Shown: positions 8,698 through 61,469 of the stretch, piece after piece | Layout: each line of letters opens with the position of its first letter | Numbering within the stretch: position 1 is the stretch's first letter | Virus record (IMG/VR): IMGVR_UViG_2541047759_000001 | From: a virus | Taxonomy: Duplodnaviria; Heunggongvirae; Uroviricota; Caudoviricetes | Strand: one strand, 5' to 3' | Length of the DNA: 64,000 nt | Made by a program: the position numbers and the translations under genes | Notes under the pieces: generated by a model | Seen by the model: the letters and a program-made list of their open reading frames with translations, nothing else | The model's database searches: none | What the model was told of the DNA's origin: nothing

Positions 8698-8754
8698 GTG
8701 AAATTAGCTATCAGGCTTCAATTACCGCTGGCATTCGCATCAAAGGAGAGGAGC

Positions 8755-10654: not shown

Positions 10655-10800
10655 CCCTCGCCACCTCTGATGTGTCAGGCATCCTCAACGCACCCGCACT
10701 TAACCCGCTTCGGCGGGTTTTGTTTTTTCCTGGCATTCTGGTTTACAATTCGCACGTCAGCCTGAACACCTGACACCTGCTGCGCCAGCAGAGAAAACAG

Positions 10801-35187: not shown

Positions 35188-35513
35188 AAACCTTTCGCTG
35201 GAAAGTGAAGCCGGATATGGAGGTGAACTCGCAGCCATCGGTGCGTGAAGTGCGTTTTGGTGACGGGTACTCACAGCGTATGGCGGCAGGGCTGAATGCT
35301 GACCTGAAAACATACAGGGTGACGCTTTCCGTGACCCGGGAGGAGGCCCGGCATCTGGAAGCGTTCCTGGCAGAGCACGGGGGCTGGAAGGCATTTTTGT
35401 GGAAGCCACCCTATGCATACCGGCAGATAAAGGTGACCTGTGCCGGGTGGTCTGCGCGGGTCGGGATGTTGCGCGTTGAGTTCAGCGCGGAGTTTAAGCA
35501 GGTGGTGAACTGA
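35184..35513 (+). CDS. M: Tail tip protein M
   Basis: 109 aa, lambda M position. Confidence 0.8.
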   Translation: MKTFRWKVKPDMEVNSQPSVREVRFGDGYSQRMAAGLNADLKTYRVTLSVTREEARHLEAFLAEHGGWKAFLWKPPYAYRQIKVTCAGWSARVGMLRVEFSAEFKQVVN

Positions 35514-36211
35514 TGCAGGATATTCACGAAGAAAGTCTGAACGAGTCGGTTAAATCAGAGCAGTCACCGCGGGTGGTACTCTGGGAAATCGACCTGACGG
35601 TACAGGGCGGTGAGCGGTATTTTTTCTGTAATGAGCTGAATGAAAAAGGGGAGCCGGTCACCTGGCAGGGGCGTAAGTATGAGGCATACCCGATTGACGG
35701 CAGCGGCTTTGAGATGAACGGCCGGGGCAGCAGTGCCCGCCCGTCGCTGACGGTGTCCAATCTGTTTGGCCTTGTCACCGGGGTGGCGGAGGACCTGCAG
35801 AGTCTGGTGGGGGCCACGGTGGTCCGCCGCCGGGTGTATGCCCGTTTTCTGGATGCGGTGAATTTCGTTGCGGGCAATCCGGCGGCGGACCCGGAGCAGG
35901 AGTTGAGTGACCGCTGGGTGGTGGAGCAGATGTCGCAGCTGACAGCCATGACGGCCTCGTTTGTGCTGGCCACACCGACCGAGACGGACGGGGCGCTGTT
36001 TCCCGGTCGTATCATGCTGGCGAACACCTGTATGTGGACCTACCGCTCTGATGAGTGTGGTTACACGGGCGAGGCTGTGGCGGATGAGTTCGATAAACCC
36101 ACCACGGATATCCGTAAGGACAGATGCAGCAAGTGCATGCGCGGGTGTGAACTGCGCAGGAATGTCGGCAATTTTGGCGGTTTCCTTTCCATTAATAAAC
36201 TTTCGCAGTAA
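35513..36211 (+). CDS. L: Tail tip protein L
   Basis: 232 aa with C-terminal Cys cluster, lambda L-like. Confidence 0.8.
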   Translation: MQDIHEESLNESVKSEQSPRVVLWEIDLTVQGGERYFFCNELNEKGEPVTWQGRKYEAYPIDGSGFEMNGRGSSARPSLTVSNLFGLVTGVAEDLQSLVGATVVRRRVYARFLDAVNFVAGNPAADPEQELSDRWVVEQMSQLTAMTASFVLATPTETDGALFPGRIMLANTCMWTYRSDECGYTGEAVADEFDKPTTDIRKDRCSKCMRGCELRRNVGNFGGFLSINKLSQ

Positions 36212-36221
36212 ATCCCGGTTT

Positions 36222-36965
36222 ATGACACAGACTGAATCAGCGATTCTGGCGCATGCCCGGCGGTGTGCGCCTGCGGAGGCGTGCGGCTTCGTGATAAGCA
36301 CGCCGGAGGGGGAGTGGTATATCCCTTGTGTGAATATTTCTGCAGAGCCGGAGGCGTATTTTCGTATCGCACCGGAAGACTGGCTGCGGGCAGAGATGCA
36401 GGGGGAGATTGTGGCGCTGGTCCACAGTCATCCCGGTGGTCTGCCCTGGCTGAGCGAGGCGGACCGGCGGCTGCAGATAAAGAGCGCACTGCCCTGGTGG
36501 CTGGTCTGCCGGGGGGCGATTCATAAGTTCCGCTGTGTGCCGCATCTCACCGGGCGGCGCTTTGAGCACGGGGTGACGGACTGTTACACGCTGTTCCGGG
36601 ACGCTTACCATCTGGCGGGGACTGAGATGCCGGACTTTCATCGTGAGGATGACTGGTGGCGTAACGGCCAGAATCTCTATCTTGATAATCTGGAGGCCAC
36701 AGGGCTGTATCAGGTGCCGTTGTCAGCGGCGCAGCCGGGCGATGTGCTGCTGTGCTGTTTTGGTTCATCGGTGCCGAACCATGCCGCCATTTACTGCGGC
36801 AACGGTGAGCTGCTTCACCATCTGCCTGAACAACTGAGTAAACGGGAGAGGTATTCCGAAAAATGGCAACGACGAACGCATTCTGTCTGGCGTCACCGCC
36901 ACTGGCACGCATCTGCCTTCACGGGGATTTGCAACGATTTGGCCGCCGCCTCAGCCTGTATGTGA
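36222..36965 (+). CDS. K: Tail tip assembly protein K (JAB/NlpC-P60-like)
   Basis: ATG at 36222 in frame with the long ORF 35961..36965; HSHPGG motif. Confidence 0.8.
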   Translation: MTQTESAILAHARRCAPAEACGFVISTPEGEWYIPCVNISAEPEAYFRIAPEDWLRAEMQGEIVALVHSHPGGLPWLSEADRRLQIKSALPWWLVCRGAIHKFRCVPHLTGRRFEHGVTDCYTLFRDAYHLAGTEMPDFHREDDWWRNGQNLYLDNLEATGLYQVPLSAAQPGDVLLCCFGSSVPNHAAIYCGNGELLHHLPEQLSKRERYSEKWQRRTHSVWRHRHWHASAFTGICNDLAAASACM

Positions 36966-37543
36966 ACACGGCAGCGGAAGCCATCCGTGCCCTGTCGTTA
37001 CAGGTGCCGGGCTTTCGCCGTCAGATGAACGAAGGCTGGTACCAGATACGTATTGCCGGTGATGACACGGCACCGGAGGCGGTGTACGCCCGTCTTCACG
37101 AACAGCTGGGTGAGGGAACGGTCATCCACATTGTGCCGCGACTGGCCGGAGCCGGAAAGGGCGGACTGCAGATTGTGCTGGGGGCGGCAGCCATCGTGGG
37201 CTCTTTCTTCACGGCCGGTGCCTCGATGGCGTTATGGGGTTCAGCCCTGGCAGCCGGTGGTTTTTCTGCCACCACGATGCTGTTTTCACTGGGGGCCAGC
37301 ATGATACTGGGCGGTGTGGCACAGATGCTGGCCCCGAAGGCAAAAACACCGGATTACCGCGTAACGGATAACGGCAGACAGAACACGTACTTTTCCTCGC
37401 TGGATAACATGATTGCCCAGGGGAACCCGATGCCGGTGCCTTACGGGGAAATGCTGGTTGGCTCCCGCCGTATATCCCAGGACATCAGCACCCGTGATGA
37501 AGGCGGGGGCGGAAAGGTCGTGGTTATCGGGCGGCAGGGGTAA
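36863..37543 (+). CDS. I: Tail assembly protein I
   Basis: ...ARICL.GDLQRFGRR..L.V.T.AEAIRAL..Q.P.FR... matches lambda I. Confidence 0.85.
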   Translation: MATTNAFCLASPPLARICLHGDLQRFGRRLSLYVNTAAEAIRALSLQVPGFRRQMNEGWYQIRIAGDDTAPEAVYARLHEQLGEGTVIHIVPRLAGAGKGGLQIVLGAAAIVGSFFTAGASMALWGSALAAGGFSATTMLFSLGASMILGGVAQMLAPKAKTPDYRVTDNGRQNTYFSSLDNMIAQGNPMPVPYGEMLVGSRRISQDISTRDEGGGGKVVVIGRQG

Positions 37544-37881
37544 AAAGAATAAAAAAATCCCGCAGAGTTGCGGAGCTGCGGGAGCGTTACGAAGATCAAC
37601 TATAGATAATTATTCTTATGTCACGACAAAAAAAATTAACGCAGAGAAATTATAAGTGCCACAGGGATTTTGTGAAAATGTGAAGATATTCAGAATTTTT
37701 ATGCCATTACCGGTTTTAACCAACAGGATTATCGGTGGGCATGAAAGAAAACCCCGGTATCTGCTGATACCGGGGTTTCTCTTTAGCATGGCAGAAATGT
37801 GTTTCATGCTTTTCGGGCGAAGGATATCCGACTTCTGTACGGAATGGCAAGTGGCGGTTAATTTATTCAGGGGAAGGCTGT

Positions 37882-40800
37882 ATGGGAAAAGGTGGCGGTA
37901 AGGCACACACGCCTCGTGAGGCGAAGGATAATCTCAAATCCACGCAGATGATGAGTGTGATTGATGCGATTGGTGAGGGACCGATAGAAGGTCCGGTGAA
38001 GGGACTGCAGAGTATCCTGGTGAACAAAACCCCGCTGACGGACACGGACGGTAATCCCGTGATACACGGTGTGACCGCGGTCTGGCGTGCCGGGGAGCAG
38101 GAGCAGACACCACCGGAAGGCTTTGAGTCCTCCGGAGCTGAAACCGGACTGGGCGTGGAAGTGACGAAGGCAAAACCGGTGACGCGCACCATTACGTCCG
38201 CGAACATTGACCGCCTGCGGGTTACCTTCGGGGTGCAGTCACTGGTGCAGACCACGTCAAGGGGCGACCGTAATCCTTCCTCTGTCCGGATTCTGATTCA
38301 GTTACAGCGTAATGGCCGCTGGGTGACGGAAAAGGACGTCACCATTAACGGCAAGACCACCTCACAGTTCCTGGCCTCGGTGATTCTGGATAATCTGCCT
38401 CCCCGGCCCTTTAACATCCGGATGGTCAGGGAGACGGCGGACAGCACCACGGACCAGCTGCAGAATAAGACGCTGTGGTCGTCATACACCGAAATCATCG
38501 ATGTGAAACAGTGCTACCCGAACACGGCCATTGTGGGGCTGCAGGTGGATGCGGAGCAGTTCGGCGGCCAGCAGATGACGGTGAACTACCATATCCGCGG
38601 TCGCATCATCCAGGTGCCGTCAAACTATGACCCGGAAAAACGCACGTACAGTGGTATCTGGGACGGCAGTCTGAAACCGGCATACAGCAACAACCCGGCC
38701 TGGTGCCTGTGGGACATGCTGACTCACCCGCGCTACGGCATGGGAAAACGTCTGGGGGCGGCGGATGTGGACAAGTGGGCGCTGTATGCCATCGGGCAGT
38801 ACTGCGACCAGACGGTCCCGGATGGTTTCGGGGGGACCGAGCCGCGGATGACCTTTAATGCGTACCTGGCACAACAGCGTAAGGCGTGGGACGTTCTCAG
38901 TGATTTCTGCTCTGCGATGCGCTGTATGCCGGTATGGAACGGTCAGACGCTGACGTTCGTTCAGGACCGCCCGTCGGATGTGGTGTGGCCGTACACCAAC
39001 AGCGATGTGGTGGTGGATGATAACGGCGTGGGGTTCCGCTACAGCTTCAGTGCCCTGAAGGACCGGCACACGGCGGTGGAGGTGAATTACACCGACCCGC
39101 AGAACGGCTGGCAGACCTCCACGGAACTGGTGGAAGACCCGGAAGCCATACTGCGCTACGGACGCAACCTGCTGAAGATGGACGCGTTCGGCTGTACCAG
39201 CCGCGGTCAGGCCCACCGTGCCGGGCTGTGGGTGATAAAGACCGAACTGCTGGAAACGCAGACGGTGGATTTCACGCTCGGGTCACAGGGGCTGCGTCAC
39301 ACACCCGGTGACATCATTGAAATCTGTGATAACGACTATGCCGGAACCATGACCGGCGGACGTGTCCTGTCCATCGATGCCGCCAGCCGTACCCTGACGC
39401 TGGACCGGGAGGTGACACTGCCGGAGACCGGCACGGCCACTGTTAATCTGATTAACGGCAGCGGTAAGCCGGCGAGCGTGGCCATCACCGCACACCCCGC
39501 GCCTGACCGGATACAGGTCAGCACCCTGCCGGATGGTGTGGAGACATACGGTGTGTGGGGACTCTCCCTGCCGTCACTGCGCCGTCGCCTGTTCCGCTGT
39601 GTCTCCATCCGGGAAAACACGGACGGCACCTTTGCCATCACGGCGGTGCAGCACGTACCGGAAAAAGAAGCCATCGTGGATAACGGTGCCCGCTTTGAGC
39701 CGCAGTCAGGCTCCCTGAACAGCGTCATCCCACCGGCAGTACAGCACCTGACGGTGGAGGTGAGCGCAGCTGACGGCCAGTATCTGGCGCAGGCTAAATG
39801 GGACACGCCGCGGGTGGTGAAGGGCGTGCGCTTCAGTCTGCGCCTGACCAGTGGTAAGGGAACGGATGCCAGACTGGTGACCACCGCCATCACCGCAGAC
39901 ACGGAGCACCGTTTCAGTGGCCTGCCACTGGGGGAATACACCCTGACGGTGCGGGCGATAAACAGTTATGGCCAGCAGGGTGAACCTGCCACCACCACCT
40001 TCCGGATTAACGCACCTGCAAAACCCGCCACCATTGAGCTGACGCCGGGGTATTTTCAGATAACGGCGGTCCCGCGTCTTGCGGTGTATGATCCGACGAT
40101 ACAGTTTGAATTCTGGTTCTCAGAAAAACGCATCACGAACACGGCACAGGTGGAAAAATCTGCCCGTTATCTGGGGTCCGGCAGTCAGTGGACTGTCCAG
40201 GGGAGCCGGATTAAGCCGGGGACGGATTTCTGGTTTTACGTGCGAAGCGTCAACCTGGTGGGAAAATCTGCTTTTGTGGAAGCCAGCGGGCAGCCCAGCA
40301 ATGATGGTGAAGGGTATCTGGAAATTTTCCGGGGGCTGATAGATGAGACGCTTCTGGGTCAGGCACTGAAAGAGCGCATTGATGCTTCAGCGCTGCGTAC
40401 GGAGGTCACGCAACTGGAAGAAGACATCCGTCAGCGGATGGACACGGATATCGCAGAAGTGACCCGGAAAATCGGGGAGGCGGAAAACAGCCTCACGCAG
40501 CTGGTTGCGAAAAAGAATGAGGACCAGACACTGGCCATCGCGCAGATGAGCCAGAAAGTGGACCGGGTTAGCAGTGAAATCTCACAGACTGTCAGCCAGG
40601 GGCAGTCAGAAAACGCCCGACAGATAGCACAGGTCCGCCAGTACGTGGATAAAAAAGGGAGTGAAATTACCTCGACCACGGATAAAAAACTGGGTGACCA
40701 GGCCGTGACCATACAGCAAATCCAGCGGGTTCAGTCAGACACGCGCAATGAGCTGAATGCCATGTATATGCTGAAGGTGCAGAAAACAAAAAACGGTATT

Positions 40801-41574
40801 CCCTATGTGGCCGGGATTGGCGTGGGGATTGAGGATGTTGATGGTCAGACCCTGAGTAACATTCTGCTGCAGGCTGACCGTATCGCGATGATTACCCCGG
40901 AGAATGGCAACACCACGCCGCTGTTTGTGGCGCAGGGGAATCAGCTGTTCATGAACGACGTGTTCCTGAAGCGACTGTTTGCGGTGAGCATCACGTCATC
41001 CGGCAATCCTCCGACGTTTTCCCTGACGCCGGATGGCAGGCTGACAGCCCGCAATGCGGATATCAGTGGAGCCATCACGGCGAATACCGGCACGCTCAAT
41101 AATGTCACCATTAACGAGAACTGTGTCATCAGAGGGAAACTGTCTGCAAACCAGATTGAAGGCGATCTCGTTAAAACAGTGGGTAAGGCTTTCCCCCGTG
41201 ACTCCCGTGCACCGAAGCGTTGGCCATCAGGAACCATTACCGTCAGGGTTTATGACGATCAGCCGTTTAACCGGCAGATTGTTATTCCGGCGGTGGCTTT
41301 CAGCGGTGCCAGACATGAGCGGGAGAACAGCGATACTTATTCGTCATGCCGCCTGATAGTGAAGAAAAACGGTGCTGAAATTTATAACCGTACCGCGATG
41401 GATAATACGCTGGTTTACAGTGGTGTTATTGATATGCCTGCTGGTCGCGGCCACATGACGCTGGAGTTTTCTGTATCAGCATGGTGGGTAAATGGCTGGT
41501 ATCCCACAGCAAGTATCAGCGATTTGCTGGTTGTTGTGATGAAGAAAGCCACTGCAGGCATCACGATTAGCTGA
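37882..41574 (+). CDS. J: Central tail fiber / host specificity protein J
   Basis: 1230 aa, N-terminal region lambda J-like. Confidence 0.9.
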
Positions 41575-53163: not shown

Positions 53164-54450
53164 ATGAATACTGGATATTCTCCCGAACAAGGGCGGGGCT
53201 TCGTTCGTCCTGAAAAACAGAATCTGCAAAATTTTGCCGAAATTATTCCGGTTATTTCCGGCCTTACTGGCGGGAGTGAAACCAATATTGTTAACGCCAG
53301 AGCGTTGCAGATGTTTGATGATAAAAAGGGAGTAAATTTAACTTACACCCCTGACGGCAATCAGAATATGAGCATTATCTCTGAGTCAGGTTTCTACAAA
53401 CTAATAAAAACAAAAAGCGCCCCGTTGCCGGAGCGCCTTTGTGAACAATTAACCTACTGCGCAAAAAATGAATCTGAGCAGTGGGATTATATCAACCATG
53501 TGGAGAAGCGCCACAATTGCCGAATAACGGGCAAAACAAAGGCCACCCGCTACGGTGGCCCCTCGACACAAGCTACACGTTATCCCCAACGCATGAGCAT
53601 TGCCAACAATGCCACATTTGCGGCTGGTGGGCAATGCAATCAGTCAGGTTCAGTTCGTTGCCATACCTGCAATGAGCGCTTTTCCCTGTACTCTTTAAGG
53701 AATTGCTCAAGGGCAAAAGCACATGGCGCGAATCTTTCTGATTCATGCTCTATCTTTCTGCGCCGTCTTTTCCGTGCCGGTGATAATGTTTTGGTCAATT
53801 CTTTATCGGTCATTGTGTTGTCCTGCATAGCAATGCGCCGTAGTTACTCACACCACGGCGCTGGTGATGGTTACTCCTGCTCTTTGGCCTTGCGGCGCTG
53901 GCGGCGTTTGATCTCGCCTTGCATTGACGCAATGATGAATTGTGATGTGCTTTCGCCTGATTCTTTCACTGATTCCATGGCGTTTACTATTTCGTGTGGT
54001 ACACGAGCCTTTAGAGCTTGTGATTTTGCGTTTGTTGTACCCGTTGCCATTTCTATTCCTCTGTTGGATTGGTGGGGGACAGTATACACAGAAAAAGCAC
54101 AAATAAAACCCTTGACGTGGGCCACACCTAAAGCATATAGTGGGCCACACCTTGAGATTATCAAGGTGCATAAATGCAAAGCCCCGCAAGTGTCGTTACC
54201 ACTCGCAGGGCTTCTAACCACCAACGATAGCGAAAGTATCGAGGTAGCTATGTTAAATCATACCACACACCCGCAAGGGCGGGACTCGCACAACCTGAAT
54301 AAATACATCTGGCGTTTTATCGCCCTGAGCACGGCACAACCGCGCGTGATTACCATTGAGGCCACCAGCGAACAGGAAGCACGCCAGCAATCTCCGGCTG
54401 GCTGCGTGATGGTATTTGCTGCCCGTATTCGTCAGGGGGTAGGCTTATGA
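53164..54450 (+). CDS. Long ORF of doubtful reality (428 codons); only the last 66 codons (54250..54450) look like a coupled small gene
   Basis: Open frame without stop, but the middle is Cys/Arg/Ser-rich, spans a promoter/operator region and is antisense to a well-formed RHH gene. Confidence 0.2.
   Translation: MNTGYSPEQGRGFVRPEKQNLQNFAEIIPVISGLTGGSETNIVNARALQMFDDKKGVNLTYTPDGNQNMSIISESGFYKLIKTKSAPLPERLCEQLTYCAKNESEQWDYINHVEKRHNCRITGKTKATRYGGPSTQATRYPQRMSIANNATFAAGGQCNQSGSVRCHTCNERFSLYSLRNCSRAKAHGANLSDSCSIFLRRLFRAGDNVLVNSLSVIVLSCIAMRRSYSHHGAGDGYSCSLALRRWRRLISPCIDAMMNCDVLSPDSFTDSMAFTISCGTRAFRACDFAFVVPVAISIPLLDWWGTVYTEKAQIKPLTWATPKAYSGPHLEIIKVHKCKAPQVSLPLAGLLTTNDSESIEVAMLNHTTHPQGRDSHNLNKYIWRFIALSTAQPRVITIEATSEQEARQQSPAGCVMVFAARIRQGVGL
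53871..54050 (-). CDS. Ribbon-helix-helix (Arc/CopG-like) DNA-binding protein, candidate island repressor
   Basis: MATGTTNAKSQALKARVPHEIVNAMESVKESGESTSQFIIASMQGEIKRRQRRKAKEQE; AGAGGA RBS; divergent from a promoter with operator repeats. Confidence 0.5.
   Translation of the reverse strand: MATGTTNAKSQALKARVPHEIVNAMESVKESGESTSQFIIASMQGEIKRRQRRKAKEQE
54112..54151 (+). promoter_or_regulatory. Rightward promoter (TTGACG ... TATAGT) overlapped by two GTGGGCCACACC operator repeats
   Basis: -35 at 54112-54117, -10 at 54136-54141; GTGGGCCACACC at 54117-54128 and 54140-54151. Confidence 0.45.
54250..54450 (+). CDS. Small hypothetical protein, first gene of the rightward island operon
   Basis: ATG 54250 with GAGG RBS; 66 aa; stop overlaps next start (ATGA). 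Confidence 0.45.
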   Translation: MLNHTTHPQGRDSHNLNKYIWRFIALSTAQPRVITIEATSEQEARQQSPAGCVMVFAARIRQGVGL

Positions 54451-54677
54451 GCCAGGAAATCACACTACAACAGGCAGCAGAACGCGCCCACCAAATCGAA
54501 GTTATTTGCGCACTGGCAGAGGATTACCCTGGCATGATGACCGACAGCGAATCAGGGGCAATCATCGGCTTACTTAAACGCCTTAGCGGTGAGGTCTGCG
54601 TATTCCTGAGCGATGAACAGGAAAGAAGAACGCTTATTTCTAACGAAAAAAAATGCGGAGGGGTACATGTGCAATAA
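54447..54677 (+). CDS. Hypothetical protein
   Basis: 76 aa, translationally coupled. Confidence 0.45.
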   Translation: MSQEITLQQAAERAHQIEVICALAEDYPGMMTDSESGAIIGLLKRLSGEVCVFLSDEQERRTLISNEKKCGGVHVQ

Positions 54678-55101
54678 AACCACACCGGACGCAGCCGCCG
54701 CCGCACTCACTACGCTGATGCACGCGCTTATTGATATTGAATGCACGGCAGAGCTTGCGCAGGGAGAAGAACAGAAAGACCGGACACAGTTCGCCCTGGA
54801 ATGTATCCGATACATCGCAACGCGGTCGCTGAATGACGCTAAAAATATTCTTGTTGCTGATTGTGAAAATGGGGGGGTTATGCGTGATGATCGTTTTAAT
54901 TCCCTGAAACAGGAATTTTCCGGCGTTCCTGATGATGCGGCTGATGCGCTTTCGTCAATGCCAGAGCTTATTAGAGCGGATTTTTTCTTACTTTCCACGA
55001 GAGAATATAAATCAACGGGGCTTGATGTACTGAATATCGCCGCCGATTATGCTGATTTCGTGACAGAGGTTATTTTAAGAAAAACGACGGACGGGGATTA
55101 A
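54667..55101 (+). CDS. Hypothetical protein
   Basis: ATG 54667 with GGAGGGG RBS; 144 aa. Confidence 0.45.
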   Translation: MCNKTTPDAAAAALTTLMHALIDIECTAELAQGEEQKDRTQFALECIRYIATRSLNDAKNILVADCENGGVMRDDRFNSLKQEFSGVPDDAADALSSMPELIRADFFLLSTREYKSTGLDVLNIAADYADFVTEVILRKTTDGD

Positions 55102-55102
55102 T

Positions 55103-55336
55103 ATGCGTGATATTTACCACGAAACAATAGACCGCGCATTTCTTGCACTTTCTCACAGTGAAAATATGTTGGAAATATTGCGCATATGTCTTGAAACGCT
55201 TGGAGATAATGAACGTGATAAACAGAAATCAAGGATTGTCACGGCATTAATAACGCTTCTTGAGCCTGTAATAAATGAGTTGCAGGAAATAGAGACATTA
55301 CACGACCAGTATAAAGCGCCCCACACCGGAGAATAA
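55103..55336 (+). CDS. Hypothetical protein
   Basis: 77 aa. Confidence 0.4.
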   Translation: MRDIYHETIDRAFLALSHSENMLEILRICLETLGDNERDKQKSRIVTALITLLEPVINELQEIETLHDQYKAPHTGE

Positions 55337-55341
55337 AAATA

Positions 55342-55641
55342 ATGAAACTTAAATATTCTGGCTTAACTGCCAGTGGCAAAACTCGCACTAAATTCATGCG
55401 CGGTGATATTTACCGCGATAAGTACGGCGGCACGGTAATGATTAAGGGCGTGGAGGAACGGCGCGTAACCTACCGTCGTGAAGGCTACGAATATGATTGC
55501 GTGATGCCTGTTTATCAGTTCGACCGTGATTTTTCTCTTGTGCAGGCCGTACCGCGTAACGTGCCCACCAGCAGGGAGAAAGCACGCGCCAATATTCAGA
55601 AGATGAAAACCATGATTAAAGGATTCAGGGGTAAAAAATGA
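55342..55641 (+). CDS. Hypothetical protein
   Basis: 99 aa, overlaps primase start. Confidence 0.4.
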   Translation: MKLKYSGLTASGKTRTKFMRGDIYRDKYGGTVMIKGVEERRVTYRREGYEYDCVMPVYQFDRDFSLVQAVPRNVPTSREKARANIQKMKTMIKGFRGKK

Positions 55642-57392
55642 AACTGGCACCGAACGTAAAACAGCAGTCACGCGGCATAAAACACAAAGGAACAGAAGTC
55701 ATTATTTTTGCGGGTAGTGATGCCTGGGCACACGCGAAACAATGGCAGGAACATGATGCGCGTATGGCCGGAGATAATGAGCCTCCTGTGTGGCTTGGGG
55801 AGCAGCAGTTATCAGAACTGGATAAGCTGCAAATTGTGCCGGAAGGCAGAAAATCCGTGCGCATATTCAGGGCCGGATATCTTGCGCCAGTAATGATAAA
55901 GGCGATTGGCCAGAAGCTGGCGGCGGCAGGCGTACAGGATGCAAATTTTTACCCTGATGGTATGCACGGTCAGAAGGTGGAGAACTGGCGCGAATATCTG
56001 GCCCGTGAGCGCCAGAATCTTTCTGATGGTCTGGTCATTGAGCTTCCGGTAAAGCAAAAGGCGCAACTTTCGCAGATGGCGGACAGTGAGCGCGCGCAGC
56101 TGCTTGCCGATCGCTTTGATGGCGTTTGCGTACATCCTGAAAGTGAAATCGTTCACGTATGGCGCGGCGGGGTATGGTGTCCGGTCAGCACAATGGAACT
56201 TAGCCGCGAAATGGTGGCGATCTATTCAGAGCACAGGGCCACTTTCAGCAAGCGCGTAATCAATAACGCCGTGGAAGCGTTAAAAGTTATTGCCGAACCA
56301 ATGGGCGAGCCGTCCGGCGATTTGCTGCCGTTCGCCAATGGTGCGCTTGACCTGAAAACGGGGGGATTTTCCCCGCACACGCCGGAGAACTGGATCACCA
56401 CGCACAACGGCATTGAGTACACGCCACCAGCACCAGGGGAGAACATCCGCGATAACGCGCCAAACTTTCATAAATGGCTTGAGCACGCAGCCGGAAAAGA
56501 CCCGCGCAAGATGATGCGTATATGTGCCGCGCTGTACATGATTATGGCGAACCGGTACGACTGGCAGATGTTTATTGAGGCCACCGGAGACGGCGGGAGC
56601 GGTAAAAGTACATTCACGCACATAGCCAGCCTTCTGGCAGGGAAACAGAACACGGTAAGCGCTGAAATGACATCGCTTGATGATGCTGGTGGACGTGCGC
56701 AGGTTGTCGGGAGTCGTCTTATCGTCCTGGCTGACCAGCCGAAATATACAGGCGAAGGAACGGGCATCAAGAAAATCACGGGCGGTGACCCCGTGGAAAT
56801 TAACCCGAAATACGAAAAGCGTTTCACGGCTGTAATCAGGGCGGTGGTGCTGGCGACCAACAATAACCCGATGATATTCACCGAACGGGCCGGAGGTGTG
56901 GCACGTCGTCGCGTGATTTTCCGTTTCGACAATATCGTCAGTGAGGCCGAAAAAGACAGGGAGCTACCGGAAAAGATCGCGGCTGAAATCCCTGTCATTA
57001 TCCGCCGATTGCTGGCGAACTTTACCGACCCTGAGAAGGCACGGGCTTTACTACTGGAACAGCGTGACGGTGATGAAGCACTGGCAATAAAGCAACAGAC
57101 GGATCCGGTTATTGAGTTTTGCCAGTTCCTGAATTTTCTGGAGGAAGCGCGCGGCCTGATGATGGGGGGCGGTGGCGATTCAGTGAAGTACACGACCAGG
57201 AACAGCCTTTACCGCGTCTATCTGGCGTTTATGGCATACGCAGGCAGGAGCAAACCGCTAAACGTAAATGACTTTGGAAAGGCTATGAAGCCTGCCGCAA
57301 AAGTTTACGGACATGAATATATTACGCGGAAAGTTAAGGGGGTAACGCAGACTAACGCAATAACAACAGACGAGTGCGACGCGTTTTTATAA
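55638..57392 (+). CDS. Primase/replication protein, P4-type D5-like NTPase (pri-rep)
   Basis: 584 aa; Walker A GDGGSGKST; D5-N-like region upstream; followed directly by iterons. Confidence 0.8.
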   Translation: MKLAPNVKQQSRGIKHKGTEVIIFAGSDAWAHAKQWQEHDARMAGDNEPPVWLGEQQLSELDKLQIVPEGRKSVRIFRAGYLAPVMIKAIGQKLAAAGVQDANFYPDGMHGQKVENWREYLARERQNLSDGLVIELPVKQKAQLSQMADSERAQLLADRFDGVCVHPESEIVHVWRGGVWCPVSTMELSREMVAIYSEHRATFSKRVINNAVEALKVIAEPMGEPSGDLLPFANGALDLKTGGFSPHTPENWITTHNGIEYTPPAPGENIRDNAPNFHKWLEHAAGKDPRKMMRICAALYMIMANRYDWQMFIEATGDGGSGKSTFTHIASLLAGKQNTVSAEMTSLDDAGGRAQVVGSRLIVLADQPKYTGEGTGIKKITGGDPVEINPKYEKRFTAVIRAVVLATNNNPMIFTERAGGVARRRVIFRFDNIVSEAEKDRELPEKIAAEIPVIIRRLLANFTDPEKARALLLEQRDGDEALAIKQQTDPVIEFCQFLNFLEEARGLMMGGGGDSVKYTTRNSLYRVYLAFMAYAGRSKPLNVNDFGKAMKPAAKVYGHEYITRKVKGVTQTNAITTDECDAFL

Positions 57393-57404
57393 TTTTTTGT
57401 AATT

Positions 57405-57640
57405 GCTGTCTACCCTGTCTACCTGAGTAAAGAAAAATACATTTAATTCAGTGCATTAAGTTAGGTAGATAGCCTTTTTTTACTGTCTACCCACTATCTA
57501 CCCTCTCTACCTGATTTTACCTGAATCAGACAGGGAGGTAGACACGGGGTAGATAGTGGATAAAAGCACTCTACCCCGCTGAAAGCCGCGCCATTACTGG
57601 CATGAGGGCCACTAAGGTAGATAAGGTAGACAAGGGGAGG
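57405..57640. repeat. Island replication origin: GGTAGA/TCTACC iterons
   Basis: At least ten copies of TCTACC or its complement in both orientations, immediately after the primase stop. Confidence 0.6.
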
Positions 57641-57680
57641 CACAACTCAAAACTTTTTAAACGAGGGGGTAAAAATAAAT

Positions 57681-57959
57681 ATGCACACTTCAGGGAAATT
57701 TAATAAATCACTCAAAAAACGCAGAGACAGAACAGAACCGAAATATCGCGCGTTAGACATGACAGAGCACGCTTTAAAGGTGGCAATCAGAACGATAGAC
57801 CGCCACGCGGGGGAAGGATACGCGAAAGCACATCCCGAACTGATAAGCGCATTCATGACCACGACGGCGGCAAATTTTGCCACGCTGACAGAGCGGGAGA
57901 TTGCCGAAGCGGAACAGGTAACAACCATCAACGTTAAAACCGGAGAGGTGGAATCATGA
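57681..57959 (+). CDS. Hypothetical protein
   Basis: ATG 57681 with GAGGGGG RBS; 92 aa. Confidence 0.45.
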   Translation: MHTSGKFNKSLKKRRDRTEPKYRALDMTEHALKVAIRTIDRHAGEGYAKAHPELISAFMTTTAANFATLTEREIAEAEQVTTINVKTGEVES

Positions 57960-58378
57960 CAGCACAGATAGCAGCTTACGGGCGGCTGGTGGACGACCCG
58001 CAGGTAAAACAGACCAGCAAGGGCACACCGATGACGCTGGCGCGTATGGCGGTCCCCCTTCCGTGCAGCCAGGCAGATGACGGAACGGCGACGATGTGGT
58101 TATCCGTCCTGGCATTTGGCAGACAGGCCGAAGCACTGGAAAGGCACCGCAAGGGTGAACTCCTGAGCGTGGCGGGTAACATGCAGATCAGCCAGTGGAC
58201 TGGGCAGAACGGAGAAACGCGGCAGGGCTGGCAGGTTATCGCAGACAGTGTAATCAGTGCGCGAACGGCGCGACTGGGCGGCAAAAAAGGTCAACAGGGC
58301 CAGGCTACTGACGCGCTGAACAGGGCAAAACAACAGGCGGGGAATGATGATCCGTACGGGGATAACATACCGTTTTAA
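57956..58378 (+). CDS. ssb: Single-stranded DNA-binding protein-like (OB fold, acidic C-terminal tail)
   Basis: ...AYGRLVDDPQVKQTSKG... OB-like N-region and C-terminal ...DDPYGDNIPF resembling the SSB DDDIPF tail. Confidence 0.65.
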   Translation: MTAQIAAYGRLVDDPQVKQTSKGTPMTLARMAVPLPCSQADDGTATMWLSVLAFGRQAEALERHRKGELLSVAGNMQISQWTGQNGETRQGWQVIADSVISARTARLGGKKGQQGQATDALNRAKQQAGNDDPYGDNIPF

Positions 58379-58393
58379 GCGACGAGAGACAGA

Positions 58394-58418
58394 AGCCGGA
58401 GCAATCCGGCTTTTTTAC
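58394..58418 (+). terminator. Intrinsic terminator after ssb
   Basis: gccggagcaatccggc + tttttt. Confidence 0.6.
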
Positions 58419-58793
58419 GGGGCCTCCTGGCGGGGTGGGCCTGAACACGGGGCGGGAAGCGCGGAAAAAAGCGCATTTTTGTGATTTTATCGTCATCATC
58501 ATCATGAGCGTAATTTATTGTTTTTAATTGTTTTGATGCAAAAAAGATGATGGTTGTGGTTAATTTTTGTTCGACATCTTTGCAGGCAGATAAAAAAGCC
58601 CGATAAGGTCAGAGGTGGCTTATCGGGCTTTTGCATATGAGGCTTTTTGGTGCACTGACACACATGATCGGGATAATCATTTCATAATTTGCAACACAAC
58701 TCAATATCATTGCACAAAATGCAATCCTGATTATAATCAGAGCTGGATGAACATCCAGTTATGATTTTTTAAGTCAAAGAGGAATTTCTTACT

Positions 58794-59000
58794 ATGGCTG
58801 AAGAGAAAAAAGGCGGTATTTCGGTGTACATAAGCCCCGACATCGTGAAGGCGCTCAAGGAACGCCACCAGCAGAACGTAAAAGCAGGCATTGCGGCAGG
58901 ACTTGATCCGCTGGCGATGGTTGAGCCGTCAACAGGCTGGCAGGTACGCGCCTATTTACGCGCGGCGCTGGGTATGAATCAGGTTCACGGGGGTGAATAA
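58794..59000 (+). CDS. Small protein upstream of capsid gene (possible RHH fold)
   Basis: 68 aa; ISVYISPDIVKALKERH resembles an RHH strand-helix start; stop overlaps capsid ATG. Confidence 0.45.
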   Translation: MAEEKKGGISVYISPDIVKALKERHQQNVKAGIAAGLDPLAMVEPSTGWQVRAYLRAALGMNQVHGGE

Positions 59001-60055
59001 TGACAGTAAAAGCAATGGCACTTAACACTAACCAGCTTTTTGCGTACCTGAATCGCGGGGATATTGCGGAATTTAAATTCAGTCCGCTGTTTACCACGCT
59101 GTTTTTCCCGAACGTGGCGACATTCAGCACGCAAAACATCATGCTGGATACCCTGGACATTGAAGAAGTCACCATGTCGGCGTTTTGTTCGCCTATGGTG
59201 GGTAGCCAGGTTCAGCGCGATAAAGGGTACGAAACCAGCACGATTAAACCTGGCTACATGAAGCCAAAGCACGAAATCGATCCAACGAAAACCATCATGC
59301 GCATGGCTGGAGAAGATCCGGCACAGCTTAACGACCCTACCTATCGCCGTATGCGCCTGATTACTGGCAATATGCGCCGCCAGATAAACGCCATAAAAGC
59401 GCGCGTGGAATGGCTGGCGGTAAATGCGGTAACGACCGGAAAAAACATCATTGAAGGCGAAGGCATAGAGCGCTATGAAATCGACTGGAAGATACCGGAA
59501 AAAAACATCATAGAGCAGGCCGACGGGAAAAAATGGTCAGAGCAGGACAAAGAAACCCACGATCCAATCTATGATATCGAACTATACGCCGATCAGGCTG
59601 GTTGCCCCGCAAACGTCATGATTATGGGCGCTGAGGTATGGCGAACGTTACGCAGCTTTAAAAAATTCCGTGAGCTGTACGATCTTTCCCGTGGTTCAGA
59701 GTCCGCCGCAGAGCTGGCCTGTAAAAACCTGGGCGAAGTGGTGAGCTTTAAAGGCTATCTGGGCGATATTGCCCTTATCGTCTATTCCGGCAAATACACT
59801 GACAGCGACGGCACAGAAAAATATTTCCTTGAGCCTGATTTGCTTGTCCTGGGCAACACCAACAATAAAGGGCTGGTGGCCTATGGTGCGATTATGGATC
59901 AGGACGCAGTAAGAACGGGCGCAACGCAAAACATGTTTTACCCGAAAAACTGGATTGAGGACGGCGATCCGGCGATTGAGTACGTGCAGACGCACAGCGC
60001 ACCGCAGCCGGTTCCGGCAGATATTCGCAAATTTGTTACCGTCAAAATTGGTTAA
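59000..60055 (+). CDS. Satellite-encoded major capsid protein, divergent paralog of prophage gpE
   Basis: Collinear with ORF 28232..29260; shared blocks GEDPAQLNDP.YRR.R.IT, NIIEQADGKKWSEQD, VVSFKGY.GD.A. Confidence 0.85.
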   Translation: MTVKAMALNTNQLFAYLNRGDIAEFKFSPLFTTLFFPNVATFSTQNIMLDTLDIEEVTMSAFCSPMVGSQVQRDKGYETSTIKPGYMKPKHEIDPTKTIMRMAGEDPAQLNDPTYRRMRLITGNMRRQINAIKARVEWLAVNAVTTGKNIIEGEGIERYEIDWKIPEKNIIEQADGKKWSEQDKETHDPIYDIELYADQAGCPANVMIMGAEVWRTLRSFKKFRELYDLSRGSESAAELACKNLGEVVSFKGYLGDIALIVYSGKYTDSDGTEKYFLEPDLLVLGNTNNKGLVAYGAIMDQDAVRTGATQNMFYPKNWIEDGDPAIEYVQTHSAPQPVPADIRKFVTVKIG

Positions 60056-60066
60056 CGGGGGATTCT

Positions 60067-60402
60067 ATGGACACTCCATACATTGAGTTATTTGCAGGCA
60101 GTCAGCAGGTCGCCACGACGCTGGTACATTTTGCCGCTGATGCTGGCGTTATTCAGGAATTTACCCCGCTGATGCTGGCGGACAATGGCGAGTTTAAGCC
60201 GTGGGATGGTAAGGAATCTGGCAAGGCTGTTTATCTGACCTCGTACCCTGTGGACACGTCAAAGCAGAAATCAGCACAGTGTTACAAGACGGGGATATTC
60301 AATATTGCCGCCGTTAACTGGCCTGAGAGCGTCGACACCGATGCGAAAAAATGCGCCGCCTTTGCGGGTTCCGGCGTATCCGTTCAGCCGCTGGCCCGAT
60401 AA
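60067..60402 (+). CDS. Satellite-encoded head decoration protein, divergent paralog of prophage gpD
   Basis: Shares TPLML, WDG and WPESVD..KK..AF.GS blocks with ORF 27827..28174. Confidence 0.7.
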   Translation: MDTPYIELFAGSQQVATTLVHFAADAGVIQEFTPLMLADNGEFKPWDGKESGKAVYLTSYPVDTSKQKSAQCYKTGIFNIAAVNWPESVDTDAKKCAAFAGSGVSVQPLAR

Positions 60403-60414
60403 GCAGGGGGAACG

Positions 60415-60828
60415 ATGGCAACGAATGAAAGCATCATGACGCTACCGCTGGCGAGTAAATTTAAAGCCGAAGCGCGGGCAATGGCTGACAGAGGTTTATC
60501 AACCTATGAGGCCGTATATCAACTAAACAAACTGGAAGAGCAGGACAAGCCGCGCGCTGATGCGATTATGGCGCTTCATGAGCATAAAGACTATCAGCCG
60601 CTGTTACGTGCAATGGCAAACGTGCCATGTATTAGCGTCGATAATGCTCGTGAAATCCTGAACATGACCATAGAGCAGGAGCGCCCAAAGGTTGCACCAG
60701 AGCTTACCGCAGCCTTTGAAAACTTTATGGACATGCACAGCCCGCAAGCCGTATCAGCTGGCATGGCATACGATGGCAGAAACCAGGGCGATGACGGCGA
60801 CATCGATCGCATACTGAAAACCATCTGA
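60415..60828 (+). CDS. Satellite-encoded scaffold-like protein (Nu3-like, resembles C-terminal part of prophage gpC)
   Basis: C-terminus ...AAFENFMDMHSPQAV... parallels ...ALFEHFMANHSPAAV... at the end of ORF 26285..27790. Confidence 0.65.
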   Translation: MATNESIMTLPLASKFKAEARAMADRGLSTYEAVYQLNKLEEQDKPRADAIMALHEHKDYQPLLRAMANVPCISVDNAREILNMTIEQERPKVAPELTAAFENFMDMHSPQAVSAGMAYDGRNQGDDGDIDRILKTI

Positions 60829-60833
60829 GACAA

Positions 60834-60858
60834 GGCCGGAGAAATCCGGCTTTTTTAC
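60834..60858 (+). terminator. Intrinsic terminator after capsid module (near-copy of the 58394 terminator)
   Basis: ggccggagaaatccggc + tttttt. Confidence 0.6.
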
Positions 60859-60861
60859 GGG

Positions 60862-60925
60862 TCCTTCCTGGAATTATGGCCCGTTACGGGGCGGCGACCT
60901 CGCGGGTTTTCGCTATTTATGACGT
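60862..60925 (+). other. Island cos site copy 1: lambda-type cosN, cohesive end GGGCGGCGACCT at 60889-60900, direct orientation
   Basis: ccgttacGGGGCGGCGACCTcgcgggttttcgctatttatga, near-identical to prophage 21905-21945; downstream sequence diverges. Confidence 0.75.
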
Positions 60926-60989
60926 TTTTCCGTGAAGGTGACACCACCACCACTTGATTAATATTTAACCATGCAGTTAAGGTAACATT

Positions 60990-61424
60990 ATGATTGATAA
61001 AGCTTGTTTTGTAAGTCAGCAGGAAATAGCTGAACATTTCAAGGTTAACAGAACCACTATTCGCGCATGGACCAAACAGGGGATGCCGTATCTTAATGCG
61101 GATCGCGGAAAGTCTGGCGGTTATCACATCGGGCATACATTGCTTTGGTCTTCAGGTAAAAGCCGTCTTGAGGCCATCAGATATCACGTAGAAACCAGTG
61201 CGCTGGAAAAAATTATGTTTGCCAGGCTGCTTTCATCTGAGCGTGACGAGTACTCCAGTGAAGAAACAGAACATCGATTTGATGAAGGTTTGCAGATTTA
61301 CGGCTATTCACCGGAAGATGTGAGCAAGGCACGAAATAAAATGGCTGGCTTTCTGGCTGGGTGGCGTCATGCCGTAAGCGTTCGCCGTGCCAGCATGGAG
61401 CAATCAGCCGATACAGAACAGTAA
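60990..61424 (+). CDS. Terminase small-subunit-like protein with Nu1-type N-terminal HTH and unrelated C-terminus
   Basis: ...QQEIAEHFKVNRTTIRAWTKQGMPYLNADRGKSGG... parallels the recalled lambda Nu1 N-terminus (..LADIFGASIRTIQNWQEQGMPVLRGGGKG..); C-terminus lacks the gpA-interacting motif seen in the prophage Nu1. Confidence 0.6.
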   Translation: MIDKACFVSQQEIAEHFKVNRTTIRAWTKQGMPYLNADRGKSGGYHIGHTLLWSSGKSRLEAIRYHVETSALEKIMFARLLSSERDEYSSEETEHRFDEGLQIYGYSPEDVSKARNKMAGFLAGWRHAVSVRRASMEQSADTEQ

Positions 61425-61469
61425 AGCCGATAACTTGTTAATCACTCGCAGCAATGCATGTGATTTGTG

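What the first reader, a model, noticed from the sequence alone, without database searches (positions are those of the whole stretch)
58794..60828. Satellite island encodes its own gpE/gpD/Nu3-like capsid set, paralogous to the neighbouring prophage's head genes
The island carries divergent copies of exactly three head components: major capsid (59000..60055), decoration protein (60067..60402) and a free-standing Nu3-like scaffold (60415..60828). Each is collinear with the prophage proteins at 28232..29260, 27827..28174 and the C-terminal part of 26285..27790. The island has no portal, protease, large terminase, connector or tail genes. This suggests it builds capsids from its own shell proteins while taking portal, protease, packaging motor and tails from a lambda-type helper. 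Gene order (small ORF, E-like, D-like, Nu3-like) is rearranged relative to the phage (C/Nu3, D, E). I cannot tell from memory whether this exact configuration is already characterised.
Basis: partly seen in the sequence, partly recalled or inferred. Interest (0 to 1): 0.9.

Follow-up and report, generated by a model that had tools for sequence, protein, structure and literature searches.

The report
Known E. coli satellite's capsid genes
The island is a near-copy of EcCICFT073, a well-studied E. coli phage satellite whose own capsid, decoration and scaffold-like genes are real and strongly conserved, but published knockouts show it spreads perfectly well without them, so their job is still unknown.

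Summary
ORFs 59000-60055, 60067-60402 and 60415-60828 are homologues of the prophage's E, D and the C-terminal scaffold part of C (47%, 36% and 37% identity). The island has no portal, protease, TerL, connector or tail genes.

The configuration is already known. The 11,152-bp island between roxA and phoQ is 97% identical to EcCICFT073, the prototype Gram-negative PICI. c1499 (capsid, PDB 3BQW) and c1500 (decoration) were described in 2018. Deleting either changed neither transfer nor lambda interference, and packaged DNA was phage-sized. Mobilisation runs through cos sites and RppA (60990-61424).

The neighbouring potB prophage is inferred to be CFT073 prophage 2, which is not the helper.

What I add:
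- c1501 is a free-standing homologue of the phage 21 gp6/Nu3 scaffold.
- The cassette is an old, satellite-specific lineage, at most 48% identical to any deposited phage capsid protein.
- It is under purifying selection as strong as the integrase (dN/dS 0.07-0.13).
- It is present in 598 of 5,426 complete E. coli genomes.

Most likely it is an auxiliary, redundant shell supply. This is unproven.

The parts
51232..51306 (+). attL direct repeat (left end of the island)
   Evidence: 75-nt direct repeat, 79% identical to 62384-62458, spaced 11,152 bp apart.
51307..52557 (+). Tyrosine integrase
   Evidence: Pfam Arm-DNA-bind_3 at 5e-18 and Phage_integrase at 6e-17. 99% identical to the CFT073 integrase.
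52923..53111 (+). AlpA regulator
   Evidence: Pfam Phage_AlpA at 3e-17.
55638..57392 (+). Primase/replicase (D5_N, DUF5906, Pox_D5 domains)
57956..58378 (+). Single-strand DNA-binding protein
   Evidence: Pfam SSB at 5e-15.
58395..58425 (+). Terminator-like hairpin upstream of the cassette region
   Evidence: 94% identical to the hairpin at 60835-60865. Sequence.
58709..58737 (+). Putative cassette promoter: palindrome ATTGCA-N5-TGCAAT overlapping a -35-like TTGCAC, followed 16 nt later by TATAAT
   Evidence: The block is conserved in 5 PICIs, including one whose cassette is only 66% identical in DNA (sequence). Function is inferred only.
58794..59000 (+). 68-aa ORF (c1498-equivalent), stop overlapping the capsid gene's start
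   Evidence: PHROG 3255, unknown function, 2e-36. Intact in 79 of 80 related loci. dN/dS 0.27-0.42. The AlphaFold model has pLDDT 64 with two helices, and the fold search gave nothing significant.
59000..60055 (+). Major capsid protein, gpE family (c1499 equivalent)
   Evidence: Pfam Phage_cap_E at 2e-52. PDB 3BQW at E=1.7e-238 and lambda gpE 7VI9 at 7e-84. 47% identical to prophage E. dN/dS 0.07-0.13.
60067..60402 (+). Head decoration protein, gpD/SHP family (c1500 equivalent)
   Evidence: Pfam HDPD at 2.5e-17. Phage 21 SHP 1TD0 at 5.6e-13 and lambda gpD at 3.5e-9. dN/dS 0.08-0.20.
60415..60828 (+). Free-standing scaffold-like protein (c1501 equivalent), homologous to the C-terminal part of protease/scaffold proteins
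   Evidence: 37% identity over 83 aa to prophage C. 39% identity, E=6e-12, to phage 21 gp6 scaffold. PHROG 53 positions 495-567 of 583. Collinear motif alignment with lambda Nu3 and N15 gp6. c1501 is listed as 137 aa.
60835..60865 (+). Terminator-like hairpin closing the cassette
60889..60900 (+). cos1: exact lambda cosN GGGCGGCGACCT
   Evidence: The flank is identical to lambda cosN and its neighbourhood.
60990..61424 (+). RppA-type redirecting-phage-packaging protein (c1503 equivalent), related to the Nu1 N-terminus
   Evidence: PDB RppC 6HLK at 5e-31. 30% identical to the lambda Nu1 N-terminus. PHROG 57 TerS.
61493..61645 (-). cos2: cosN plus a cosB matching that of the neighbouring potB prophage
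   Evidence: 87% identity over 153 bp to prophage 21906-22058. Three R-like 8-mers with identical 59/30-nt spacing.
61704..61985 (+). 93-aa conserved ORF of unknown function
   Evidence: PHROG 1561 at 2e-53. Annotated in CFT073 and other PICIs.
62384..62458 (+). attR direct repeat (right end of the island)
26285..29260 (+). Comparator: prophage C (protease/scaffold), D and E genes of phage 21 type
   Evidence: E is 94% identical to the phage 21 capsid protein.

Best explanation
Identity (near certain). The island at 51232-62458 is a variant of EcCICFT073, the prototype classical (Rpp-type) Gram-negative phage-inducible chromosomal island.

Published mechanism for the 97%-identical island. A lambdoid cos helper activates alpA. 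The island then excises, replicates from its own primase and origin, and is packaged from its cos sites by the helper terminase, which RppA retargets. The DNA goes into full-size helper capsids as concatemers. Four island copies would be 44.6 kb.

The cassette (orf68, E-like, D-like, Nu3-like; 58794-60828) appears to be a single operon just upstream of cos1 and rppA. It belongs to an old satellite-specific lineage of the three high-copy shell proteins.

Committed inference, about 40% likely. The cassette products assemble on the helper's portal and protease, either alone or mixed with helper E. They end up in mature, DNA-filled capsids as an auxiliary shell supply that is redundant with the helper's own. 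That redundancy would explain why the knockouts are silent with efficient laboratory helpers.

Shown: identity, homology, conservation and selection. Inferred: any structural use of the proteins.
For: Identity:
- 97.4% identity over 97% of the island to CFT073 1377702-1389209, at the same roxA-phoQ site.
- int, alpA, primase and SSB are present.
- Exact lambda cosN occurs twice in the island.
- An Rpp-family protein is present.

Evidence that the cassette is functional:
- dN/dS for the capsid gene is 0.07-0.13, equal to the integrase at 0.07-0.08. The decoration gene is 0.08-0.20 and the Nu3-like gene 0.25-0.29.
- All four ORFs are intact in nearly all of 80 related loci, while the neighbouring rpp, SSB and int modules are swapped.
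- The cassette is at least 80% covered in 598 of 5,426 complete E. coli genomes.
- The same gene order occurs in a PICI whose capsid protein is only 64% identical, with a different integrase and att site.

Evidence for an old satellite lineage:
- No phage among 50,697 records exceeds 48% identity.
- All capsid proteins found in PICI contexts form one clade, sister to the phage clade.

Argument for structural use (inference):
- Established lambda biology says a decoration protein acts only on expanded, DNA-filled shells built from its cognate capsid protein.
- The E-like and D-like genes are paired in all six cassette-bearing PICIs whose annotation I read, the window's island included.
- The Nu3-like protein keeps the C-terminal motif shared by phage scaffolds.
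Against: - Deleting c1499 or c1500 did not lower transfer by the native helper. An island lacking c1499 transfers at 1e5-1e6 per ml with prophage 4, lambda and phi80. The authors state they found no phenotype (PMC6092414).
- No mass spectrometry or EM shows island capsid or decoration protein in particles.
- Other PICI lineages carry E and D but no Nu3-like gene, so a private scaffold is not general.
- The island capsid protein is only 41-47% identical to helper capsid proteins, which makes co-assembly with the helper portal, protease and scaffold uncertain.
Confidence: 0.4

Rival explanations
1. Capsid-morphogenesis or interference device, like Ccm of SaPIbov5. The island's capsid protein, scaffold fragment and decoration protein would enter or compete with the helper's procapsid assembly. 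They would either redirect capsid size or poison assembly of particular phages, specifically the phage 21 head type rather than lambda.
For: - The field's working label for the PICI capsid gene is 'capsid morphogenesis' (PMC10085698).
- PmCI172, which also carries a capsid homologue, makes small capsids (PMC6092414; PMC6893505).
- The Nu3-like protein resembles the phage 21 type scaffold C-terminus (E=6e-12) but not lambda Nu3.
- The D-like protein is closer to phage 21 SHP than to lambda gpD.
- Published interference tests used lambda, phi80 and HK97 only, so an effect on phage 21 type heads would have been missed.
Against: - Packaged DNA was phage-sized with lambda, and no PICI-monomer band appeared in induced CFT073, whose helper has phage 21 type head genes.
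- Deletions did not relieve lambda interference, and single-gene expression did not block lambda.
- A pure interference role gives no reason to keep a decoration protein under purifying selection.
Confidence: 0.25
2. Backup or complementation copy. The cassette lets the satellite be mobilised by helpers whose capsid gene is interrupted or defective. This includes the helper-embedded PICIs that integrate inside the helper's E gene.
For: - A PICI integrated inside a prophage E gene and carrying its own E and D genes was found here (L007). This matches the published HE-PICI class, whose authors propose a backup role (PMC10111431).
- The capsid gene is the most common late gene in Gram-negative PICIs, present in 21 of 29 reference PICIs.
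Against: - This island sits in the chromosome, not in a prophage.
- Excision of an HE-PICI restores the helper gene anyway.
- No complementation experiment exists.
- 41-47% divergence from helper E may prevent the island protein from substituting for it.
Confidence: 0.15
3. One reading: the island obligatorily builds its transducing capsids from its own E, D and Nu3-like proteins, and takes only portal, protease, terminase and tails from the helper.
For: The gene content fits. The island holds the three shell components and nothing else of the head.
Against: - c1499::cat, delta-c1499 and delta-c1500 islands transfer normally. The tetA control island had an intact cassette.
- Packaged DNA was phage-sized.
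Confidence: 0.03
4. A decaying remnant of captured prophage late genes with no present function.
For: No phenotype was found in the laboratory.
Against: - dN/dS for the capsid gene equals that of the integrase.
- The ORFs are intact in about 95% or more of 80 loci.
- The cassette is conserved across PICI lineages with saturated synonymous divergence.
- The upstream promoter block is conserved.
Confidence: 0.05

Closest known systems
EcCICFT073 (E. coli CFT073 O-island 51; genes c1498-c1503), the prototype Gram-negative classical PICI
   Same: - 97.4% DNA identity over 97% of the island, at the same roxA-phoQ insertion site.
- Same cassette order, two cos sites and RppA.
- Capsid protein 99% identical, decoration protein 100% and Nu3-like protein 93%.
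   Different: - This variant lacks the PerC-family gene that CFT073 has between ssb and the cassette.
- Its SSB is only 72% identical to the CFT073 SSB, so that module has been swapped.
Capsid-forming PICIs (cf-PICI, e.g. EcCIEDL933)
   Same: A satellite with an int-alpA-rep backbone that carries its own capsid gene from a lineage separate from phages.
   Different: - cf-PICIs also encode portal, protease, head-tail adaptors, HNH, TerS and TerL. They make small capsids and need only helper tails. None of those genes is present here.
- cf-PICI capsid genes fall in a different clade from PICI capsid genes (PMC10085698).
Head genes E, D and C/Nu3 of lambda, and 7, shp and 5/6 of phage 21
   Same: Same protein families.
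   Different: - Only 41-47% identity for the capsid protein.
- The scaffold is free-standing rather than nested in the protease gene, and it is shorter (137 aa against 200 aa, two repeat units instead of three).
- The gene order is reversed: E, D, scaffold.
SaPIbov5 Ccm
   Same: A capsid-protein homologue encoded by a cos-packaged satellite.
   Different: - Ccm causes small capsids and strong interference. Here size redirection was not seen, and deletions do not relieve interference.
- Ccm comes without a decoration or scaffold partner.
Helper-embedded PICIs (11capE type)
   Same: Same backbone, with a capsid plus decoration pair from the same satellite clade.
   Different: - They integrate inside the helper's late genes.
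- They carry an AlpA-like HTH gene instead of the Nu3-like gene. The chromosomal tRNA-Pro PICI with the same cassette type (L006) also carries a full Nu1-type TerS.

Membership tests
Classical Gram-negative PICI (EcCICFT073 / Rpp type) | Integrase at one end, with flanking att direct repeats | tested here: met
   Integrase at 51307-52557. att repeats 11,152 bp apart.
Classical Gram-negative PICI (EcCICFT073 / Rpp type) | alpA regulator and own primase-replicase, co-oriented, total size 10-20 kb | tested here: met
   Phage_AlpA at 3e-17 and D5_N/DUF5906/Pox_D5 domains. Island size 11.15 kb.
Classical Gram-negative PICI (EcCICFT073 / Rpp type) | Helper-type cos site(s) plus an Rpp or TerS-like protein | tested here: met
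   Exact lambda cosN at 60889 and 61628. Rpp family match, 6HLK at 5e-31.
Classical Gram-negative PICI (EcCICFT073 / Rpp type) | No TerL, portal, tail or lysis genes | tested here: met
   ORF list and Pfam/PHROG scans.
Classical Gram-negative PICI (EcCICFT073 / Rpp type) | Helper-dependent induction, packaging and high-frequency transfer | not testable with these tools
   Published for the 97%-identical CFT073 island (PMC6092414).
Capsid-forming PICI | Own portal, prohead protease and head-tail adaptor/connector | tested here: not met
   No such ORFs or family hits in 51232-62458.
Capsid-forming PICI | Own large terminase (and HNH) | tested here: not met
   Only a truncated Nu1-like Rpp is present.
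Capsid-forming PICI | Satellite-sized capsids made of satellite proteins | not testable with these tools
   Published data for EcCICFT073 show only phage-sized packaged DNA.
Lambda gpE / HK97-fold major capsid protein | Full-length match to Phage_cap_E and to solved gpE structures | tested here: met
   Pfam at 2e-52 over 26-349. 3BQW at E=1.7e-238 and 7VI9 at E=7e-84.
gpD/SHP head decoration protein | Match to HDPD and to solved gpD/SHP structures | tested here: met
   Pfam at 2.5e-17. 1TD0 at 5.6e-13 and 1C5E at 3.5e-9. Trimer formation was not tested.
Nu3/gp6 head scaffolding protein | Sequence homology to an annotated nested scaffold | tested here: met
   Phage 21 gp6: 39% identity over 83 aa, E=6e-12. 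Lambda Nu3 and N15 gp6 match only at motif level.
Nu3/gp6 head scaffolding protein | Encoded as an in-frame internal start within the protease gene | tested here: not met
   It is a free-standing 137-aa gene with its own ribosome-binding site, and the island has no protease domain.
Nu3/gp6 head scaffolding protein | Acts as an internal scaffold that is removed from procapsids | not testable with these tools
   The single-sequence AlphaFold model is all-helical but has pLDDT 44.
Ccm-type capsid size redirection | The satellite capsid homologue causes small capsids and helper interference | not testable with these tools
   Published tests with lambda were negative. Phage 21 type helpers were not examined for interference.

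The most novel reading that the evidence does not exclude
Classical Rpp-type PICIs may be 'half' capsid-formers. Their conserved capsid, decoration and scaffold cassette would assemble satellite-encoded or mixed shells on the helper's portal and protease. The published dispensability would then reflect redundancy with helper capsids, not lack of use. That would place them between classical PICIs and cf-PICIs. It would also mean transducing particles can have a shell genetically distinct from the helper's.
Probability: 0.3. Interest if true: 0.65.

Novelty: already known. Interest (0 to 1): 0.3.

Why it matters
The island and its capsid and decoration genes are textbook material for the PICI field, so the finding itself adds little.

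The open problem it points to is real. A capsid gene is listed as a core PICI component and sits in about 11% of complete E. coli genomes. It evolves under constraint as strong as the integrase, yet no phenotype has been found for it.

Two points sharpen that problem into direct tests. First, c1501 is a scaffold homologue. Second, a decoration protein is always carried with the capsid gene, and a decoration protein is only useful on mature shells. The tests are mass spectrometry of particles and complementation of helpers lacking E, D or the scaffold.

Tried and rejected
1. I suspected the published 'c1501::tetA' marker had broken the scaffold gene, which would have made all knockout controls invalid. 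I rejected this. The primer homology arms end at the c1501 stop codon and resume at the terminator, so c1501 is intact.
Their satellite context is inferred only from the tree.
The single-sequence model of the Nu3-like protein was too poor to search with (pLDDT 44).
4. The orf68 model (pLDDT 64) gave no significant fold match, best E=2.8. The ribbon-helix-helix idea remains a guess.
5. BLASTP of the 137-aa protein against lambda Nu3 and N15 gp6 found nothing. Only phage 21 type scaffolds match.
6. PADLOC and NCBIfam gave no hits for the cassette, so there is no support for a known defence role.
7. NCBI's name for the c1501 family, 'phage head-tail connector protein', has no support from Pfam, PHROGs or NCBIfam. 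I set it aside.
8. I read the prophage Q-downstream region looking for similarity to the cassette promoter. Nothing was evident by eye, and I ran no formal comparison.
9. The IMG/VR scan returned only relatives at 94% identity or more. It was useful for checking intactness but not for finding intermediate architectures.
Full report
**Observation.**
- The 351-aa product of 59000-60055 aligns over 343 residues with the prophage major capsid protein (28232-29260) at 47% identity, E=2e-109.
- The 111-aa product of 60067-60402 aligns with the prophage decoration protein at 36% identity, E=2e-16.
- Residues 49-131 of the 137-aa product of 60415-60828 align with residues 416-493 of the 501-aa prophage protease/scaffold protein at 37% identity, E=3e-11.
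- Pfam gives Phage_cap_E (2e-52) and HDPD (2.5e-17), and nothing for the third protein.
- PHROGs places the third protein on the last 70 positions of the 'head maturation protease' profile.
- An all-against-all comparison of island and prophage ORFs finds only these three protein paralogies.
- The island has no portal, protease, TerL, connector, tail or lysis gene.

**What the island is.** Direct repeats at 51232-51306 and 62384-62458 delimit an 11,152-bp element between roxA and phoQ. In one orientation it carries:
- a tyrosine integrase, AlpA, a DUF4222 protein, a D5-type primase and an SSB;
- the four-gene cassette;
- an exact lambda cosN at 60889;
- a 144-aa protein related to the N-terminus of Nu1, which matches the solved RppC structure at 5e-31;
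- a second, inverted cosN at 61628;
- a 93-aa ORF.

Megablast against complete E. coli genomes shows 97.4% identity over 97% of the island to CFT073 1377702-1389209. The gene order there is the same. This is EcCICFT073, the prototype Gram-negative PICI.

The supplementary table of Fillol-Salom et al. 2018 gives c1499 = 351 aa 'capsid', c1501 = 137 aa, c1502 = 60 aa and c1503 = 113 aa. The main text names c1500 as the head decoration protein. c1503 is RppA (PMC6739421).

The capsid protein matches PDB 3BQW, 'putative capsid protein of prophage', at E=1.7e-238. An essentially identical protein therefore already has a solved structure.

- Deleting c1499 or c1500 did not change transfer by the resident prophages (3.8e3 and 8.7e3 against 8e3 transductants per ml).
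- An island in which cat replaces c1499 transfers at 1e5 per ml from CFT073, about 1e3 per ml from a lambda lysogen and 1e6 per ml from a phi80 lysogen.
- All DNA packaged in lambda plus island lysates was phage-sized.
- Neither deletion relieved interference with lambda.
- The authors say they found no phenotype for c1499.
- Of the genes downstream of the origin cloned singly under pBAD, only c1503 blocked lambda (PMC6739421).

I worried that the standard marker 'c1501::tetA' had destroyed the scaffold gene. The primer arms show the cassette was inserted between the c1501 stop codon and the terminator. The controls therefore carried an intact cassette.

Later papers treat the capsid gene as a common but non-essential PICI gene. 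It is present in 21 of 29 reference PICIs (PMC10111431). It is also listed as a 'capsid morphogenesis' core component (PMC10085698). I found no paper assigning a function, and none noting that c1501 is a scaffold homologue.

**The relation to the neighbouring prophage is not special.**
- The neighbour is the potB prophage. Its TerS, TerL, portal, protease, D and E carry the same protein accessions as the CFT073 potB prophage.
- By map order that prophage is CFT073 prophage 2 (inference). Its deletion did not affect island transfer. Deleting prophage 4 abolished transfer.
- Prophage 4 lies at icd. It has head proteins 93-98% identical to those of the potB prophage but a different TerS N-terminus and cosB.
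- Both prophages have phage 21 type heads. The neighbour's E is 94% identical to the phage 21 capsid protein and 62% to lambda E.
- The island capsid protein is 41-47% identical to all of these.

**New points from this analysis.**

1. *c1501 is a scaffold homologue.* It matches the annotated nested scaffold gp6 of phage 21 (39% over 83 aa, E=6e-12). It aligns collinearly with the C-terminal 135 residues of phage 21, Gifsy-1, N15 and lambda scaffolds. The shared features are the I-M-x-L-x-E-A...P-G-M-T-V...A-R-x-I-L repeat and the terminal F-E-x-F-M-x-x-H-S-P motif. BLASTP alone does not link it to lambda Nu3 or N15 gp6. It is free-standing and has two repeat units where phage 21 gp6 has three.

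2. *The cassette belongs to a satellite lineage.*
   - Among 50,697 phage records, 402 have a homologous capsid gene, and the best is 47.8% identical.
   - The Nu3-like protein has one weak phage hit.
   - In a neighbour-joining tree (midpoint-rooted, no bootstrap), all capsid proteins I could place in PICI contexts form one clade. These are EcCICFT073 variants, two tRNA-Pro PICIs and a helper-embedded PICI.
   - Homologues at 48-87% identity from Salmonella, Edwardsiella, Lelliottia, Serratia and Cedecea fall in the same clade.
   - That clade is sister to the lambda/N15 plus 21/Gifsy-1 phage clade.

3. *It is under purifying selection.* Against alleles with dS of 0.08-0.21:
   - capsid gene dN/dS 0.07-0.13;
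   - integrase 0.07-0.08;
   - decoration gene 0.08-0.20;
   - Nu3-like gene 0.25-0.29.

   For orf68, whose comparisons have dS 0.48-1.06, dN/dS is 0.27-0.42.

4. *It is common and stable.*
   - At least 80% of the cassette is present in 598 of 5,426 complete E. coli genomes, including Nissle, O157 and O145 strains.
   - In 80 IMG/VR loci chosen by the capsid match, the decoration gene is intact in 78, the Nu3-like gene in 70 of 73 where it is on the contig, and orf68 in 79.
   - In the same loci the adjacent RppA is replaced by another variant, or lies off the contig, in 61.

5. *The cassette has its own signals.*
   - Near-identical terminator hairpins lie at 58395-58425 and 60835-60865.
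   - An upstream block conserved across divergent PICIs holds a perfect palindrome, ATTGCA-N5-TGCAAT, overlapping a -35-like hexamer 16 nt before TATAAT.
   - Each gene has a GGGGG-type ribosome-binding site.

6. *Other PICI lineages differ.* They keep the capsid-decoration pair but replace the Nu3-like gene with an AlpA-like HTH gene. L006 also carries a full Nu1-type TerS.

**Mechanism.** Mobilisation of this island is explained by published work: helper-activated alpA, self-replication, cos sites and RppA-retargeted helper terminase, with packaging into helper-size heads.

For the cassette I commit, at about 40%, to an auxiliary structural role. The main argument is an inference from lambda biology.
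- A decoration protein binds only expanded, DNA-filled shells of its cognate capsid protein. Keeping a private D with a private E under selection makes most sense if the island's capsid protein reaches mature capsids.
- The scaffold fragment retains the C-terminal motif common to the phage scaffolds.
- These three proteins are the high-copy components of a lambda head, whereas portal, protease, terminase and connectors are low-copy or catalytic. This stoichiometry is from my own knowledge of lambda.
- Redundancy with helper capsids would explain the silent knockouts.

The main rival, at about 25%, is a Ccm-like morphogenesis or interference role directed at phage 21 type heads. The published lambda-based assays would not have detected that. 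A backup role for helpers with broken capsid genes gets about 15%. None of these can be settled without experiments.

**Verdict.** The configuration is already characterised as EcCICFT073.

The residual interest is the unexplained strong conservation of a capsid, decoration and scaffold cassette in classical PICIs. A small annotation gain is that c1501 is a Nu3/gp6-type scaffold homologue.

Noticed in passing
window 61493-61645 (- strand) compared with 21906-22058: The island's second cos site shares 87% identity over 153 bp with the neighbouring potB prophage's cos. The match covers cosN and the cosB side, with three R-like 8-mers (ATGTCCGG / CCGG[A/G]CAT) at identical 59/30-nt spacing. cos1, and the helper prophage 4 cos, share only about 54 bp around cosN with it. 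CFT073 has the same cos2; the O157 and strain-142 variants do not. This suggests the potB-type TerS could recognise cos2 directly, without Rpp. The 2018 paper reported finding no phage cosB in the island.
   Followed up: partly
window 58709-58737: A perfect palindrome, ATTGCACAAAATGCAAT, overlaps a -35-like hexamer 16 nt upstream of TATAAT, ahead of the capsid cassette. It is conserved in five PICIs, including one whose cassette is only 66% identical in DNA. It is a candidate operator for an unknown regulator. A hairpin plus T-run (58741-58769) sits in the leader.
   Followed up: partly
window 58395-58425 and 60835-60865: Two 31-nt terminator-like hairpins, 94% identical to each other. One follows ssb and the other follows the Nu3-like gene, so together they flank the cassette region.
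   Followed up: no
window 58426-58640 compared with L001 8758-9006: CFT073 and O157 variants carry a PerC-family regulator gene between ssb and the cassette. This window, like strain 142, has unrelated non-coding sequence there instead.
   Followed up: partly
window 58794-59000: The 68-aa ORF whose stop overlaps the capsid gene's start (PHROG 3255, unknown function) has a pattern of short N-terminal segment, helix, helix, reminiscent of ribbon-helix-helix DNA binders. The AlphaFold model has pLDDT 64. The best Foldseek hits are RHH antitoxins and CopG, but none is significant (E of 2.8 or higher).
   Followed up: partly
window 60415-60828: NCBI names many members of this 137-aa family 'phage head-tail connector protein'. 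That conflicts with the protein's homology to the C-terminal scaffold region of phage 21 type protease/scaffold proteins. No Pfam, PHROG or NCBIfam model supports the connector name.
   Followed up: yes
window 51232-62458: The island is 11,152 bp long. Four copies total 44.6 kb and three copies 33.5 kb. Packaging into lambda-size heads between cos sites would therefore most plausibly take a tetramer. The 2018 paper spoke of skipping two cos sites.
   Followed up: no
window 32608-41574 compared with L005: The best-matching RefSeq genome (HM670) annotates several tail genes of the potB prophage as frameshifted. In the window itself the tape-measure ORF (859 aa) and the J ORF (1,230 aa) are intact. 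The window is therefore not identical to that assembly in the prophage, and the prophage need not be defective.
   Followed up: partly
L007 (E. coli GPEC1165), locus 2443-14556: A helper-embedded PICI sits inside the major capsid gene of a lambda-like prophage. It carries its own capsid and decoration genes, from the same satellite clade as the window's island.
   Followed up: partly
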